Positions 1 through 58,888 are shown, numbered from the stretch's first letter. The stretch: DNA of 64,000 bases from GCA_000165345.1 CM000430.1:768001-832000, one strand, 5' to 3'. Notes: generated by a model from the sequence alone, not told the origin. Made by a program: numbers and translations.

Positions 1-1012
1 AAGCTAATTGTATGTAAAAAAACACTATTTGTTATCTTTTTTCTTTATTATAAATGAATAATCGACTATTTTTTTATATTAAGAGCTAAACAATTTAATA
101 CTATACATATTTGGACAATTTCCCGCCTAATATTTAATTGGCTTAATTTATTTGAAAGAAGTCATTTTCTAAATATTTATTCCTTTAACAATAATAATAA
201 TAATAGTAATATGAGCACAATTTAATCCATTAAATGTGCAAGTTTCATTTTAATTATATTCAATTTAAAATATAATTAAAATGCATTTTGATTTTAATGT
301 AAATTTAACTCAAAGAAACTTTTAATGACATTTAATGTTCATGCTTGTGCAATAATATAACATATTATTATAATATGGGGAATTTTTTGGAAAGTATTTT
401 TTCATGTTATTCTCATAGATGATTCTTCTTATTAATGTATTTCCTGATTGTTTTCAATTCAGGGAAATAATATACATTGCAAGATAGTTATCTAACAACA
501 TTTTTAAAGAAAAAAAAATTTTTTATTATTTTTACATTCTATTTTACACAATCATTTTTCCATACACAAATAAATAATCACTTTTTTTATTTACATATTA
601 ATATTAACTACCCTCACTTTGCCGCCAATTCGATATTTGACATGTTTCTAACCTCAACATTTAATTTTTACTGGTGTAAACAATTTTTAAGTTTTTTTCG
701 CGGTAAATTTAAAAACTGCATGCAAATTATATAATACAGTTATCATTTCTTTAATGTGAAAGTTACATGCATTCTGGAAACAAAATAAGCGCCAAAACTT
801 CTACCGTATGCATTAATTAAATTAATTAAATTAAAAATAAAAAAAATTATCTACTCGTTAATTTTATTTACTCTAAATCTTTCCTTCTTTATTTATTTAT
901 CTCTTACTTCTTACTATATTCTTACTCTTTCTAGCAGTCGTTAAAACCATATTCTCCCCTCCCTACCTTCACCCTCCCCCAATCGCACCCTAAACCTCTT
1001 CTTTCTCTGTTA

Positions 1013-4000
1013 TCATTCTCTTTCTGACTCAAAATCTGAGAAATCTGGATCATCCATATTTTGACCCATTAATTTCTTCTCCTCTTTATTTTGACTTAAA
1101 ATACGATCTTTCTCAATCTCATTCATTAACTCTTCCCTTGATTTTACATGTACAAATTGCTCAAAATCTCCAATTAATGTTGTTGATAAACTTTCAGTAA
1201 CACTTGCAAAGAAATTCAAAGCTCCAAATAATGAAGAAAGTGCTATTCTAACAATTGCAAATATTAAAGTTAATACAAATACACTCTTTTTATTTGTTTT
1301 TTTAAAATTATCAATTGGTTCCCTATATAATAATATCCATGGTGTTATAAATGTATCCATAAACATCCCAACAATACCATTCCAAATTGCATCCAAAATA
1401 CTCTTTGGTCTTGGCCTTCTTCCTCCTAATAACTTATGACCAAAATTAAATATTACTGATGCTGTTTGAAATGCACCTCCTAAGAAATATCTGAAAAAAT
1501 GAATTAAACCAACTCTAAAACCTTGAACAAATCCTTCTAAAAATGTTAAATCATCATCTGTTACACCTCTTTTAATCTCAATAAATAATGCCTTAAATCC
1601 TCTCTTCATACCTGAATATATTGCTACCAAGTGTGTTACTCCTAAAGAAGGTAATACTCTTCTTTTTAATTGTCTTGAATATGATGAAACTAAAAAATGG
1701 AAGAATTCTGCAATATCAACCACTAATGCATCTTTATTAAGTGAACTCACATTTAATATCATATGTGGTGTATCTAATGGTAATATATTCATAAATAATA
1801 ATGCTTCTGGAGTTAATGTATCAATATCTATTGTATCATCTGATGTTCTTATTGTTATTGTTACTATTATATCACTAATTTTTAACGTTCTTATATATAA
1901 TGGTTTTCCAATCTTAAGTTGATCCCATGGTGTTCTAGTAATATACATTGGAAGTCCATATCCGCCTGATACATAACAAACAAGAGATCCTAAATAATTT
2001 GTTTCTCTATGACTTTTCTTTTTAATCATTTTTTGCCTTGTAGAATGCATCCATAATGTTTTTTGTCTTGAATATGTTATTATATTCATATTCTCAATTT
2101 CTTTTGAAATCATAAAATATAAAGTTTGAACTACAAGCCTTTCCAAATTACAACATATTTGTGATACTGTTATATTGATTTCATCAAATATTGGAGCATA
2201 TACAGGACTCATTAATGATCTAGATATTGTTAATGAAAAGAATTTACTTTCCAAATTTCTTATTCTATCATCCAAATTACCACTATTATTACGTTTTGAA
2301 TTACTTCCAATTACTTCGTATCCAATATCAATATCATCTTCTATCATATTTTCATTATTATCATATCTTTTTTTTCCTTTATTTTTCTTATTAAACTTAT
2401 TCTTTCTTATTAGTATATCTTCTTGAGCATTAATATTATTATTATTATTATTATTATTATTATTGTGCTCCAAATTATTCTTGTCCTTATCTGAATCAAT
2501 ATTTAAGTCTTCTAATATAGATAAATTACTATTGTTCATTCTATTTATTTTTGTACCCAAATTCTCATCATTATCACCTTCTTCATCCCATTCTGTCAAT
2601 TCAAAACCCTTTATTTGTCTTATACTTTCCGTTCTATCCAAATTCTGGTTGTTTGTTGAAGTTTTTAATATTACAGGAATATCTCCTGGTAGAAAGTGAT
2701 CAATATGAATCGAAGAAAGACCCAAATTTAATATTATTTTTCCGCTTGTAAGTAAAGTCTTCTCCATATAATTTGAAATTAAAACCACTATATTAATTAA
2801 TGAAACTAATACTCCATCATATATTTCATAATATTTTGTATTTAAATCTCGATAATCATGATGATTTATATTTGTCAAATCATTTGTCTCATCATCATCC
2901 TTATACAAAAATTGATCTAAAGTTCTTCTACTTTGGCTCTGAAATTCAGATCCTAATAACATTAATTCACTCTCAATTCTTTTTTTTCTTCCTCCTTTAT
3001 TTATCTCATTTCCATATAATTTTGAAATACTTAATCTTTTTTTGATATATTTTTCATTATTCATACAATCCTTATAAACTTTTCTCAACAATTTCAGTAC
3101 ATTATTTAAAATAGGATTCTCTTTTGGTGATACTGTTCCACCAATTGAATTCAAATTTCTACTTAAAAATTGATAAATCTCTTTAATTGTCTCACTTAAT
3201 AATTCAAATGTTCTTTCTTCTGAATTATCATCCAATATTGGAATTGTTTTATTATAAGAATTATAACTTATTGATGGAAAACTCATATTTTGTTTCATAT
3301 CTAATACACCCTCTTGTGAATATATATAACTTCCATTATATAAACCACTTGTTAATTCTACTCCTTCAATTCCATCTGATAGCTTTTTTTGAATCTCTTC
3401 ATTATTCTCATCTTCTAATTCTGAATCATAATAACTTAAATTTTCATTATTATCTCCATTTAATAAACGATCCATCAATTTTTTCTTAATTTTTTGTCCT
3501 TTTCTTTTTATATATTCAATCTTATTATGTTCTCCTAAGTTACCACTATTATATAATGACTCAAAATCACTAGCTCCATCTAATTGCATAGTTTTTCCAA
3601 AGATTTGTTTCTTCTTATTAGAATTATTGAATAAATTATTTACTCTATTAGTAAATAAAGCCATAATATTCATCTTATTACTAGAAATTGAAGATCTACT
3701 AGTATTTAAATGACTTTGGCTTATCAATTTAAGTTTTTCAATCTTAGATCCAATCTTTGGATTCTTATGATAATCTTTATCTTGAGAAAACCCAACTAGT
3801 TTGTAACATATATTCATTAATGAATCACAAACAATATTCAATATAGACATTGGATATATATTTTGAGGTATAATATTTACTGAGACATGAAATAAAGATC
3901 CATGAGTTACTAAAACTAGTTCATTTTGATGAATCCAAGAAATACTAGTTCTTGGAATAAAGAAAGATATTTTAAATCCAATCCATGAAATCTTTTTCCA

Positions 4001-57895: not shown

Positions 57896-58350
57896 TTACC
57901 AAAAATGAAGCATTCCAAGACTAAGTACATTACCAATTAGTCCAAGAGATGCAAGAGCTAGAAATATATCATAATTTGTTAAATACTAAGATATTATTGG
58001 TGAATATTAATGAATCATAATCATTTTATATTTAACATTGACCAAACTTACATATAGTATTATAGAAACAAAAAATAATAATGTACTATAACTCAATATA
58101 TCCACATATTTTACATATACAGGCTTATTTTTACTCGCGATTGGACAATATTTATCCAATATTGCTTCATCATCAGACCCACAACTATCTGAATCAGTAA
58201 CATCTGAAAAAAATGCATATAAATTTATTAATTAAATAAATAATATATCTTGTTCTATTCTCACTATATAATTCCTTTCTCATTTTAATTTATATTATAT
58301 TACTTACCTGAAACTTCTATTTCTGTGTATCTTATCCTTCTTTTAATCAT
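57896..58350 (-). CDS. Small (94 aa) membrane protein with two predicted C-terminal transmembrane helices, encoded by 3 exons. Absent from the ORF track
   Basis: Exons in plus coordinates on the minus strand:
- 58350..58308, ATG ATT AAA AGA AGG ATA AGA TAC ACA GAA ATA GAA GTT TCA G, in phase 1.
- 58203..58052.
- 57985..57896, ending in TAA.

Intron 1 spans 58204..58307. It is GTAAGT...TTTTTTTCAG, 104 nt. Intron 2 spans 57986..58051. It is GTAAGT...ATATCTTAG, 66 nt. Phases are consistent, and total CDS is 285 nt, or 95 codons.

Product: MIKRRIRYTEIEVSDVTDSDSCGSDDEAILDKYCPIASKNKPVYVKYVDILSYSTLLFFVSIILYYLTNYDIFLALASLGLIGNVLSLGMLHFW. The ATG is the first in-frame codon after a TAA. The upstream region carries TGCATGCATGCA at 58441-58452 and TTGCATGCGTTTTGGCGGGAAATCG at 58670-58694. 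Confidence 0.6.
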
Positions 58351-58888
58351 TTTGGCTTATTTTCACTTTAATTATTAATTTTGACAATTTTCAAAAAAAA
58401 AAGTTTTCCTTTTGCTTCTTTTTTTCCCTAAATTCTTAAATGCATGCATGCATTTTTTATTCTAATTAACGAAATAAAGGGGGGAGGTGTAACAGTGATG
58501 GCGGTGCTGGTTAAAATGCTCCTTTCAAATCCTTTAACTGATTTTCTTTTTAAAATAAAAAGTAACCCTTTAATTGTTAATATAACTTAAAAAATCTATT
58601 TTATTACTTACAAATCTTGCATTTAATTGAATATTTCACTCTAATATATATTTATCGTCCACATTAAAATTGCATGCGTTTTGGCGGGAAATCGTGGAAA
58701 TGCATTATTTATATTAATAGGATTAAAATTAAAATAAACTAATTGTTTTGGTTAGTATTTATTTCCTATGTTATTAAAGAAGATTTGAGCTAGATTAAAA
58801 AAACTTGAATTGAAAAATAAACAAAAGATACAATAATAAAAGTTAAATAACAATGCGAATTATATCAACAAAATGCATTGATAGTTTA

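What the first reader, a model, noticed from the sequence alone, without database searches (positions are those of the whole stretch)
118..58694. Recurrent E2F-type GC-rich 12-mer TTCCCGCCTAAT (3 exact copies) and TTCCCGCC relatives, positioned tightly against gene ends
In about 30%-GC DNA an exact 12-mer with 7 G/C recurring three times (120-131, 36232-36243 and the minus strand at 37938-37949) is very unlikely by chance. Two further sites share TTCCCGCC. These are AGTTCCCGCCAG at 34444-34455 and CGATTTCCCGCCAAAA at 58680-58693. The latter is a textbook E2F site.

They are distinct from the better-known palindromic GGCGCC sites also present here. Placement is striking:
- one is about 90 bp upstream of the bromodomain-like gene's ATG;
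- one is 26 bp after that gene's stop;
- one abuts the subtilase stop while sitting in the 178-bp HAD-gene promoter;
- one is upstream of the hidden small membrane-protein gene.

A related family, TTGCCGCC, occurs at 617-627, 34098-34108 and 45872-45882. Together these suggest a second, asymmetric E2F/DP-like element class, or a site used in compact bidirectional or terminator-proximal contexts.
Basis: partly seen in the sequence, partly recalled or inferred. Interest (0 to 1): 0.5.

Follow-up and report, generated by a model that had tools for sequence, protein, structure and literature searches.

The report
Known Cryptosporidium E2F promoter sites
The recurring GC-rich words are real, evolutionarily conserved promoter elements, but they are the E2F-type motif already published as the commonest upstream motif of Cryptosporidium parvum, and not a new class.

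Summary
The window is Cryptosporidium parvum chromosome 2: the bromodomain ORF is 553/553 identical to EAK88663.1. TTCCCGCCTAAT occurs three times, TTCCCGCC five times and TTGCCGCC three times, against about 0.1 expected. Some coordinates are off by 1-2 nt.

These are functional cis-elements. 21 of 27 TTSSCGS strand-matches lie in the 18.6% of the window outside the large ORFs. Four sites are conserved at orthologous positions in up to ten Cryptosporidium species with 24-49% GC, while their flanks have diverged.

They are not a second class. Both forms are published as E2F-like motifs:
- Oberstaller 2013: motif 3 DTTGSCGCCH and motif 4 TTTGGCGGGAAV.
- Li 2021: E2F/DP1 motif TTSSCGCCWAA, with TTCCCGCCTAA listed as an instance.

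At two orthologous sites the core changes between CCCGCC, GCCGCC and GGCGCC across species, so the variants are interchangeable. The three 12-mer copies have unrelated flanks, so they are independent sites rather than copies of a repeat.

Closeness to gene ends reflects the compact genome. One site starts 1 nt after a stop codon inside a 178-bp promoter. One conserved site, 26 nt after the bromodomain stop in a convergent gap, has no identified target. Binding by E2F/DP is inferred, not shown.

Verdict: already known, low interest.

The parts
119..131 (+). E2F-type site TTTCCCGCCTAAT. It is the first of a cluster of E2F-like sites in 1-1012, downstream of the stop of the 6579-aa gene. The gene it serves is unknown and may lie left of the window.
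   Evidence: No orthologous sequence could be fetched for this end of the window.
618..630 (+). E2F-type site TTTGCCGCCAATT. Both strands match TTSSCGS, and it fits published motif 3 DTTGSCGCCH.
34099..34106 (+). Distal E2F-type site TTGCCGCC, 445 nt upstream of the bromodomain ATG. It lies next to a conserved ACATGCA (AP2_1-like) block and is only partly conserved: exact in C. ubiquitum, TTACCGCC in L009, TTACCGTT in chipmunk.
   Evidence: 1 of 8 columns invariant, p=0.7
34445..34452 (+). Proximal E2F-type site TTCCCGCC, 91-99 nt upstream of the bromodomain ATG (34544). In most other species it is a double site, for example TTTCCCGCCGGCGCCAAA. In C. parvum the second half has decayed to AGCGGT.
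   Evidence: 7 of 8 columns are invariant in 6 species against a 13.8% background (p=5.5e-6). The orthologous site is present in all ten species, with core CCCGCC, GCCGCC or GGCGCC.
34544..36205 (+). Bromodomain protein gene, 553 aa, 100% identical to C. parvum Iowa II EAK88663.1
36232..36243 (+). E2F-type site TTCCCGCCTAAT, 26 nt after the bromodomain stop. It lies in the 593-bp gap between two convergent genes. Its target transcript is unidentified.
   Evidence: Exact TTCCCGCC sits 23-27 nt after the stop in C. parvum, chipmunk genotype I, C. canis and L010, and is absent in C. ubiquitum and L009. The gap has no conserved ORF, no Rfam match and no match in the published lncRNA FASTA, which is stored truncated.
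37933..37948 (-). E2F-type site with a conserved extension, TTTCCCGCCTAATCTC. It begins 1 nt after the subtilase stop codon TAG (37951-37949) and lies about 165-178 nt upstream of the ATG (37770) of the 323-aa gene. The YAATCT part resembles the published CAAT-box motif GGCCAATCT.
   Evidence: 14 of 15 columns are invariant in 4 species against a 29% background (p=8.8e-8). C. xiaoi has TTTGCCGCCTAA in the same spacer. The CAAT-box motif is from PMC12246861.
36799..37770 (-). 323-aa gene served by the 37933-37948 site. It carries an FDWDDTLL motif, but Pfam gives no significant family.
45873..45880 (+). E2F-type site TTGCCGCC(CCAAAG), 74-81 nt upstream of the ATG (45954) of the 3948-aa gene
   Evidence: TTGCCGCCCC is conserved at -81 to -84 in C. 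parvum, chipmunk genotype I and C. ubiquitum.
58680..58691 (-). Full 12-bp E2F site: TTTCCCGCCAAA on the minus strand, TTTGGCGGGAAA on the plus strand, an exact match to published motif 4. It is part of a conserved module TTTCCCGCCAAAACGCATGCA..ATGTGGAC, 333 nt upstream of the small gene's ATG.
   Evidence: 22 of 34 module columns are invariant in 4 species against a 10.8% background (p=1.9e-15). C. felis has TTGGCGCC at the orthologous position.
58007..58350 (-). Small intron-containing gene for a 79-99 aa protein with a hydrophobic C-terminal part. Exon 1 is 58350-58308. The 3' exon structure is uncertain.
   Evidence: Orthologues of 82-94 aa are annotated in chipmunk genotype I, C. canis and C. 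felis. Exon 1 is conserved. The gene models are, and Pfam finds no family.
21066..21073 (-). Palindromic-core E2F site TTGGCGCC in the divergent promoter between the 6579-aa gene and the 1467-aa gene. Listed for comparison as a member of the same family.
21483..21492 (.). Palindromic E2F site TTGGCGCCAA in the same divergent promoter
42884..42893 (.). Palindromic E2F site TTGGCGCCAA in a tandem (unidirectional) promoter, about 175 nt upstream of the 694-aa gene's ATG (42710). It shows that palindromic sites also occur next to an upstream gene's stop.
45373..45380 (-). Palindromic-core E2F site TTGGCGCC in the divergent BOP1 / 3948-aa gene promoter
63947..63956 (.). Palindromic E2F site TTGGCGCCAA, about 400 nt upstream of the SNF2 ATG (63547). 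It is conserved in chipmunk genotype I, C. canis and C. felis.

Best explanation
The TTCCCGCC(TAAT) and TTGCCGCC words are individual instances of the E2F/DP-type promoter element of Cryptosporidium. Its consensus is about TTSSCGCCWAA, or TTTSSCGSSAAA when written as two half-sites.

Each site lies in an intergenic region, usually 80-450 nt upstream of a start codon. Each is kept by purifying selection while the surrounding DNA diverges.

The likely mechanism is binding of a heterodimer of the parasite's E2F and DP winged-helix proteins to the CG-centred core, which opens or activates the promoter. This step is inferred. CCCGCC, GCCGCC and GGCGCC are alternative permitted cores of one site type, because each half-site only has to fit TTTSSCG.

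The 12-mer identity of three copies is the known consensus (11 of the 12 positions) plus one A/T-rich flank base. It is not a separate element or a repeat.

The tight placement against gene ends follows from the compact genome, where the promoter of one gene starts at the stop codon of the previous one.

Shown here: occurrence, enrichment, intergenic bias, conservation, interchange of cores, and match to published motifs.
Inferred: the binding protein and the effect on transcription.
For: Identity of the window:
- The bromodomain ORF is 553/553 identical to the C. parvum Iowa II protein.

Enrichment:
- Shuffles expect 0-0.14 copies, against 3-5 observed.
- Of all 64 TT+SSSSSS 8-mers, the top three in the window are TTGGCGCC (10), TTCCCGCC (5) and TTGCCGCC (3). 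The same three lead in the other species' loci.

Intergenic bias:
- 21 of 27 TTSSCGS strand-matches lie in the 18.6% of the window outside the big ORFs (binomial p=4e-11).
- All 9 strict matches in the 24.7-kb chipmunk locus L011 are intergenic.

Conservation:
- Conservation p-values run from 5.5e-6 to 1.9e-15 (alignments).
- The site upstream of the bromodomain gene is present in all ten species at -79 to -147.
- Cores are exchanged at orthologous sites.

Literature:
- Motif 3 DTTGSCGCCH (114 clusters) and motif 4 TTTGGCGGGAAV (47 clusters) are both called E2F-like. Together they are the most abundant upstream motif in C. parvum (PMC3734150).
- MEME motif 1 E2F/DP1 is TTSSCGCCWAA. In parts 1-2 of its instance table I counted 29 CCCGCC cores against 22 GGCGCC cores (PMC7840661 Table S3).
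- ATAC-seq peaks in sporozoites are dominated by E2F1-like and E2F6-like motifs, which also occur between genes of polycistronic transcripts (doi 10.1101/2025.01.17.633476).
- C. parvum encodes two E2F and two DP genes.
Against: - No experiment in the searched literature shows that Cryptosporidium E2F/DP proteins bind these sequences. The factor assignment rests on resemblance to E2F sites of other eukaryotes.
- The site at 36232 lies in a convergent gap with no gene to serve, so at least one instance does not fit the simple picture of a promoter for the next gene.
- The distal TTGCCGCC site at 34099 is not significantly conserved.
- Three identical 12-mers among roughly a dozen sites is somewhat more than I would expect from the degenerate consensus. 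I could not quantify this without the whole genome.
Confidence: 0.85

Rival explanations
1. The asymmetric CCCGCC/GCCGCC sites are a functionally distinct, directional subclass. They would be read by a different E2F/DP pair (E2F6-like rather than E2F1-like) and used in unidirectional or terminator-proximal promoters, while GGCGCC palindromes would serve bidirectional promoters.
For: - In this window, palindromic cores are 4 divergent against 1 non-divergent. Asymmetric cores are 1 divergent against 5 non-divergent (Fisher p=0.08).
- Asymmetric sites point TTSCCGCC towards the gene in 5 of 5 assignable cases here, and in 7 of 8 when the extra chipmunk regions are added.
- In Li 2021 Table S3, 19 of 29 CCCGCC instances are on the '+' motif strand.
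- MEME/Tomtom reported separate E2F1-like and E2F6-like motifs in ATAC-seq peaks.
- C. parvum has two E2F and two DP genes.
Against: - The context association is absent in chipmunk genotype I (p=1), C. canis (p=0.27) and C. felis (p=1).
- C. felis and C. serpentis carry GGCGCC at the orthologous tandem-promoter positions where C. parvum has CCCGCC.
- A palindromic site serves a tandem promoter at 42884.
- All numbers are small, the classification was made after seeing the data, and sites within one region are not independent.
Confidence: 0.1
2. The CCCGCC sites are GC-boxes bound by an Sp1/KLF-like C2H2 zinc-finger protein rather than by E2F/DP.
For: - GGCGGG resembles part of the GC-box.
- C. 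parvum has many C2H2 zinc-finger proteins (table in PMC3734150).
- The binding factor has never been tested directly.
Against: - None of the five TTCCCGCC sites contains the GC-box core GGGCGG/CCGCCC.
- The T-run 5' of the core and the WAA 3' of it are part of the conserved pattern.
- Orthologous sites swap to GGCGCC, which is not a GC-box.
Confidence: 0.04
3. The repeats are chance matches, a compositional artefact, or copies of a dispersed repeat or mobile element.
For: None beyond the small absolute number of copies.
Against: - None of 100 shuffles reaches the observed counts.
- The flanks of the three 12-mer copies are 11-17/40 identical, against a chance level of 0.30 per base.
- The sites are conserved at orthologous positions across species with 24-49% GC.
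Confidence: 0.01

Closest known systems
Cryptosporidium parvum E2F-like upstream motifs: Oberstaller et al. 2013 motif 3 DTTGSCGCCH and motif 4 TTTGGCGGGAAV; Li et al. 2021 motif 1 E2F/DP1 TTSSCGCCWAA
   Same: The organism and the sequences are the same.
- All three TTCCCGCCTAAT copies fit TTSSCGCCWAA at 11 of 11 positions.
- The 58680-58691 site equals TTTGGCGGGAAV.
- The TTGCCGCC sites at 619 and 34099 fit DTTGSCGCCH exactly, and the one at 45873 fits 9 of 10 positions.
- The upstream/intergenic location also agrees.
   Different: Nothing essential differs. Two things added here are not stated in the papers I read: conservation and core turnover at orthologous positions across about ten Cryptosporidium species, and the exact placement of these particular chromosome 2 sites.
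Canonical eukaryotic E2F/DP binding site (TTTSSCGC, or 12-bp TTTSGCGCSAAA; E2F4-DP2 structure, Zheng et al. 1999; TTTCCCGCC is the commonest form in Arabidopsis, Ramirez-Parra et al. 2003, both as cited in PMC3734150)
   Same: A T-run, a CG-centred S-rich core and an A-rich 3' flank. Both CCCGCC and GGCGCC cores are accepted. The sites lie in promoters.
   Different: - Binding by the Cryptosporidium proteins is untested.
- No Rb-family partner is known in apicomplexans (PMC3734150).
- The motif is found upstream of most gene clusters rather than a cell-cycle subset.
- It also occurs upstream of antisense lncRNAs and between genes of polycistronic transcripts.
E2F motifs in inter-gene UTRs of C. 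parvum polycistronic transcripts (Xiao et al. 2025 preprint, doi 10.1101/2025.01.17.633476)
   Same: The 37933-37948 site lies in a 178-bp spacer between two same-strand genes and starts 1 nt after the upstream stop codon. The preprint describes this arrangement for 160 of 201 polycistron spacers.
   Different: I could not check whether the subtilase and 323-aa gene pair is one of the reported polycistrons, because no supplementary tables were available.

Membership tests
C. parvum E2F-like upstream motif (Oberstaller 2013 motifs 3 and 4; Li 2021 motif 1) | Sequence fits the published consensus DTTGSCGCCH, TTTGGCGGGAAV or TTSSCGCCWAA | tested here: met
   - TTCCCGCCTAA (three copies) fits TTSSCGCCWAA at 11 of 11 positions.
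- TTTGGCGGGAAA at 58680-58691 fits motif 4 at 12 of 12.
- TTTGCCGCCA (618) and GTTGCCGCCT (34098) fit motif 3 at 10 of 10, and CTTGCCGCCC (45872) at 9 of 10.
- Sequences are, consensus strings.
- TTCCCGCCTAA itself is listed as a motif 1 instance for Cp_lnc_38 and Cp_lnc_258.
C. parvum E2F-like upstream motif (Oberstaller 2013 motifs 3 and 4; Li 2021 motif 1) | The organism is Cryptosporidium | tested here: met
   - The bromodomain ORF is 553/553 identical to C. parvum Iowa II EAK88663.1.
- The SNF2 protein is 97% identical to that of C. hominis.
- Synteny holds with nine other Cryptosporidium assemblies.
C. parvum E2F-like upstream motif (Oberstaller 2013 motifs 3 and 4; Li 2021 motif 1) | Over-represented in non-coding upstream regions | tested here: met
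   21 of 27 TTSSCGS strand-matches lie in the 18.6% of the window outside the large ORFs (p=4e-11). Almost every promoter region carries one or two sites. This was tested on 64 kb only, not genome-wide.
Canonical E2F/DP binding site | T-run plus CG-centred SSCGSS core (TTTSSCGC) | tested here: met
   All five TTCCCGCC sites and all three TTGCCGCC sites fit TTSSCGS, and four of the five TTCCCGCC sites have a third T. The unbiased 8-mer ranking puts the TTSSCGCC family on top.
Canonical E2F/DP binding site | Bound by an E2F/DP winged-helix heterodimer | not testable with these tools
   This needs EMSA, protein-binding arrays, ChIP or CUT&RUN. None was found for Cryptosporidium in the searched library.
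Canonical E2F/DP binding site | The genome encodes E2F and DP proteins | not tested
   The genes lie outside this window. The literature reports two E2F genes (cgd1_1560, cgd6_1430) and two DP genes in C. parvum.
Canonical E2F/DP binding site | The site is under selection as a regulatory element | tested here: met
   Phylogenetic footprints at 34445, 37940 and 58683 have p-values from 5.5e-6 to 1.9e-15. The 36232 site is exact in 4 of 6 species at the same offset. The 34099 site is not significantly conserved.
   - The site upstream of the bromodomain gene has CCCGCC in seven species, GCCGCC in C. xiaoi, and GGCGCC in C. felis and C. serpentis.
- The small-gene promoter site has CCCGCC in three species and GGCGCC in C. 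felis.
   C. parvum window: [[4,1],[1,5]], Fisher p=0.08. Chipmunk genotype I p=1, C. canis p=0.27, C. felis p=1. The sample is far too small, and a genome-wide count is needed.
Sp1/KLF GC-box | Core GGGCGG (CCGCCC) | tested here: not met
   None of the five TTCCCGCC sites contains CCGCCC. They read TTCCCGCC followed by T or A.
Dispersed repeat or mobile element | Similarity extends beyond the short word into the flanks | tested here: not met
   Flank identity is 11-17 of 40, against a chance level of 0.30 per base.

The most novel reading that the evidence does not exclude
The asymmetric TTSCCGCC sites may be a directional subclass of E2F element. They would point towards the transcript they drive and be read by a different E2F/DP pair than the GGCGCC palindromes of bidirectional promoters. 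On this reading, the conserved site 26 nt after the bromodomain stop codon (36232) marks the promoter of an unannotated plus-strand non-coding transcript that runs antisense into the convergent 323-aa gene.
Probability: 0.1. Interest if true: 0.45.

Novelty: already known. Interest (0 to 1): 0.15.

Why it matters
E2F-like sites are thought to be the main promoter signal of Cryptosporidium, the only apicomplexan lineage that kept E2F/DP factors. The factor-site link is still untested. This window adds nothing new in kind.

It does supply well-defined test cases. There are four sites with clear cross-species footprints. Two are natural core swaps (CCCGCC to GGCGCC) that argue for one site type. 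One site abuts a stop codon. One conserved orphan site lies in a convergent gap and could point to an unannotated transcript. These would be convenient targets for reporter mutagenesis or CUT&RUN validation.

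Tried and rejected
1. A hidden gene or RNA served by the 36232 site.
   - Six-frame comparison of the convergent gap across six species found no ORF conserved beyond the closest relative.
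   - Rfam found nothing at gathering score for the whole window, or at E<=1 for 36150-36850. There are no tRNAs.
   - Twelve 14-mer seeds from 36162-37725, on both strands, gave no match in the lncRNA FASTA of Li 2021. That file is stored truncated and line-wrapped, so absence is weak evidence.
2. Gene-ID look-up in the supplements of the polycistron preprint failed because no supplementary files are held. Searches for cgd2_35, cgd2_36 and cgd2_37 in the Li 2021 supplements gave nothing.
3. A hairpin straddling the subtilase stop codon (GGTAG...CTGCC) looked covarying by eye. Folding z-scores were -0.2, -0.8, -2.5 and 0.0 in four species, so I dropped it.
4. The test of core symmetry against promoter context was not significant.
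5. The bacterial promoter/terminator scan of the gap is irrelevant for a eukaryote and found nothing above shuffles.
6. Pfam gave no family for the 323-aa 'HAD' gene or for the small membrane protein.
7. Mullapudi 2007 gives only the cores GGCG and CGCCAA in its text, because the motifs are in figures.
8. Orthologous sequence for the left end of the window (sites at 120 and 619) could not be fetched.

Full report
**Observation**

- TTCCCGCCTAAT is exact at 120-131(+), 36232-36243(+) and 37936-37947(-). No shuffle produced a copy.
- TTCCCGCC occurs five times against 0.14 expected.
- TTGCCGCC occurs three times against 0.13 expected.
- The window is 28.8% GC.
- The 58680 site is on the minus strand. 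The plus strand reads TTTGGCGGGAAA at 58680-58691.

**Origin of the window**

The window consists of very long intron-poor ORFs. The bromodomain ORF at 34544-36205 is 553/553 identical to C. parvum Iowa II EAK88663.1. The SNF2 ORF is 97% identical to that of C. hominis. The window is therefore Cryptosporidium parvum chromosome 2, or a near-identical isolate.

Gene order is conserved in nine other assemblies: chipmunk genotype I, C. ubiquitum, C. canis, C. felis, C. xiaoi, C. ryanae, C. serpentis and two Logan assemblies, L009 and L010. Those annotations also supply genes that a plain ORF scan misses:
- an intron-containing subtilase on the minus strand, from 37949 to about 40100;
- a small intron-containing gene on the minus strand between 57800 and 58889, with its ATG at 58350.

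**Placement**

- The 34445 site ends 91 nt before the bromodomain ATG.
- The 36232 site starts 26 nt after that gene's stop.
- On the minus strand, TTTCCCGCC begins 1 nt after the subtilase stop TAG (37951-37949). It lies in the 178-bp spacer before the ATG (37770) of the next gene.
- The 58683 site is 333 nt upstream of the small gene.
- TTGCCGCC at 45873 is 74-81 nt upstream of the 3948-aa gene, and TTGCCGCC at 34099 is 445 nt upstream of the bromodomain gene.

**Are the sites one family?**

An unbiased ranking of all 64 8-mers of the form TT+SSSSSS puts TTGGCGCC (10), TTCCCGCC (5) and TTGCCGCC (3) on top in the window. The same words lead in the loci of the other species.

Sites matching TTSSCGS on either strand number 27. 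Of these, 21 lie in the 18.6% of the window outside the large ORFs (binomial p=4e-11). Nearly every promoter region holds one or two such sites. The CCCGCC/GCCGCC forms occupy that slot in promoters that lack a GGCGCC palindrome.

Read as two half-sites, TTTCCCGCCTAA is TTTCCCG plus the complement of TTAGGCG, and both halves fit TTTSSCG. The 'asymmetric' form is thus a permitted version of the 12-bp TTTSSCGSSAAA site.

**Conservation**

The sites are clear phylogenetic footprints in otherwise diverged intergenic DNA, across species whose loci range from 24% to 49% GC.
- The proximal bromodomain site has 7 of 8 columns invariant in six species, against a 13.8% background (p=5.5e-6).
- TTCCCGCCYAATCTC at 37933-37948 has 14 of 15 columns invariant in four species (p=8.8e-8).
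- The module TTTCCCGCCAAAACGCATGCA..ATGTGGAC upstream of the small gene has 22 of 34 columns invariant in four species (p=1.9e-15).
- An orthologous site 79-147 nt upstream of the bromodomain ATG exists in all ten species.

The core changes between species at the same position.
- Upstream of the bromodomain gene it is CCCGCC in C. parvum, chipmunk genotype I, C. ubiquitum, L009, C. canis, L010 and C. ryanae. It is GCCGCC in C. xiaoi, and GGCGCC in C. felis and C. serpentis.
- Upstream of the small gene it is CCCGCC in three species and GGCGCC in C. felis.

This is direct evidence that the variants are functionally interchangeable.

**The 12-mer**

The three exact copies share nothing beyond the 12 bases. 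Flank identity is 11-17 of 40, at chance level. They are independent sites and not copies of a repeat.

The TAAT tail is conserved only at 37936, as YAATCTC, which resembles the published CAAT-box motif GGCCAATCT. At 36232 the tail is AAAA, ACAT or ATTT in other species. Eleven of the twelve bases are specified by the published consensus TTSSCGCCWAA.

**Literature**

- Oberstaller et al. 2013 (PMC3734150) list two E2F-like motifs in C. parvum. Motif 3 is DTTGSCGCCH (114 expression clusters), which includes TTGCCGCC. Motif 4 is TTTGGCGGGAAV (47 clusters), the complement of TTCCCGCCAAA. [quoted passage not shown]
- Li et al. 2021 (PMC7840661) define E2F/DP1 motif 1 as TTSSCGCCWAA upstream of lncRNAs. 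In the first two parts of their Table S3 I counted 29 instances with a CCCGCC core and 22 with a GGCGCC core. TTCCCGCCTAA appears twice.
- Xiao et al. 2025 (doi 10.1101/2025.01.17.633476) find E2F1-like and E2F6-like motifs dominating sporozoite ATAC-seq peaks, and E2F motifs in 160 of 201 spacers between genes of polycistronic transcripts.
- A 2025 review (PMC12246861) stresses that almost none of this has been functionally validated. I found no ChIP or in vitro binding data for Cryptosporidium E2F/DP.

**Mechanism**

The best-supported reading is that these are binding sites for E2F/DP heterodimers that mark and activate promoters.
- Shown here: enrichment, intergenic bias, conservation, core interchange and the match to the known motif.
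- Inferred: the identity of the binding protein and the transcriptional effect.

The tight packing against gene ends follows from intergenic spacers of 180-650 bp. A promoter element 1 nt after a stop codon implies that the upstream 3' UTR overlaps the downstream promoter. That agrees with the reported overlapping or polycistronic transcription. The C. ubiquitum annotation even fuses the subtilase and the downstream gene into one model.

I tested whether asymmetric cores prefer unidirectional contexts. In this window the table of palindromic/asymmetric against divergent/other is [[4,1],[1,5]], p=0.08. It is p=1, 0.27 and 1 in chipmunk genotype I, C. canis and C. felis.

Asymmetric sites point towards the downstream gene in 7 of 8 assignable cases (C. 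parvum plus the extra chipmunk regions). In the Li table, 19 of 29 are on the '+' strand. This trend is worth a genome-wide test, but it is not evidence of a class.

**Open item**

The site at 36232 is exact in four of six species, 23-27 nt after the bromodomain stop, and lies in a gap between convergent genes. It is absent in C. ubiquitum and L009. I found no conserved ORF, Rfam family or published lncRNA there.

The likeliest role is promoter of an unannotated non-coding or antisense transcript. Li et al. report E2F motifs within 100 nt upstream of antisense lncRNAs, which are biased to the 3' ends of genes. This is unproven.

**Verdict**

The E2F assignment is supported by resemblance and by the literature. 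The 'second class' is not supported. The finding is already known, and interest is low.

Noticed in passing
window 58650-58691 (minus strand): The E2F site is the first part of a tightly packed conserved module, TTTCCCGCCAAAACGCATGCAATTTTAATGTGGAC. It joins an AP2_1-type CGCATGCA and ATGTGGAC, the complement of Li 2021 motif 5 TTGTCCACATK. The module is conserved in C. parvum, chipmunk genotype I, C. canis and, with a GGCGCC core, C. felis. A second conserved TGCATGCATGCA lies at 58440-58451, about 90 nt before the ATG.
   Followed up: partly
window 58007-58350 (minus strand): A small intron-containing gene is invisible to a plain ORF scan. Exon 1 is 58350-58308 and encodes MIKRRIRYTEIEVS. The protein is 79-99 aa with a hydrophobic C-terminal part. 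Orthologues of 82-94 aa are annotated in chipmunk genotype I, C. canis and C. felis. Pfam finds no family, and the 3' exon structure is unresolved.
   Followed up: partly
window 37933-37951; L002 12222-15516: The promoter element of the 323-aa gene starts 1 nt after the subtilase stop codon. The stop is 0-2 nt from the site in four species. The C. ubiquitum annotation merges the subtilase and the downstream gene into one 790-aa model. The pair may therefore be transcribed as a dicistron, or the model may simply be wrong.
   Followed up: no
window 37936-37941 versus L003 13283 and L010 13445: The conserved 3' extension of the site, CCGCCYAATCT, is close to the published C. parvum CAAT-box motif GGCCAATCT. 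It matches 8 of 9 positions in C. canis and L010, and 7 of 9 in C. parvum. It may be a composite E2F/CAAT element.
   Followed up: no
window 34445-34460 versus L003 9907, L005 5489, L006 9896, L010 9908: In most species the site upstream of the bromodomain gene is a double site with two overlapping cores, for example TTTCCCGCCGGCGCCAAA or TTGGCGCCGGCGCCAAA. In C. parvum the second core has decayed to AGCGGT.
   Followed up: partly
window 119-795: Four E2F-like sites cluster here: TTTCCCGCC at 119, TTTGCCGCCAA at 618, TTTCGCGG at 696 and TTTGGCGC at 789(-). Several TGCATGC motifs accompany them. The 1012 bp lie downstream of the stop of the 6579-aa gene and hold no ORF of note. This is probably the promoter of a gene left of the window.
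   Followed up: no
window 33628-33637: A perfect palindromic site, TTTGGCGCCAAT, lies inside the coding sequence of the 492-aa gene, about 270 nt before its stop and about 910 nt upstream of the bromodomain ATG. No strict match is present in the orthologous chipmunk gene.
   Followed up: partly
L001-L013 as a whole: GC content of the same syntenic region ranges from 24% (C. ryanae, C. xiaoi) to 46-49% (C. canis, C. felis). Gene order and the E2F sites are nevertheless retained. In the low-GC species C. xiaoi, C. ryanae and C. serpentis, SSCGSS cores are very rare (3-6 per 21.6-kb locus). One of them lies about 80-105 nt upstream of the bromodomain ATG.
   Followed up: partly
window 26592-31183: The WD40 ORF (26592-27431) and the F-box-like ORF (28313-31183) are annotated as one intron-containing gene of 1257-1392 aa in the seven NCBI-annotated species where a model is given. 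The ORF scan therefore splits a single gene.
   Followed up: no
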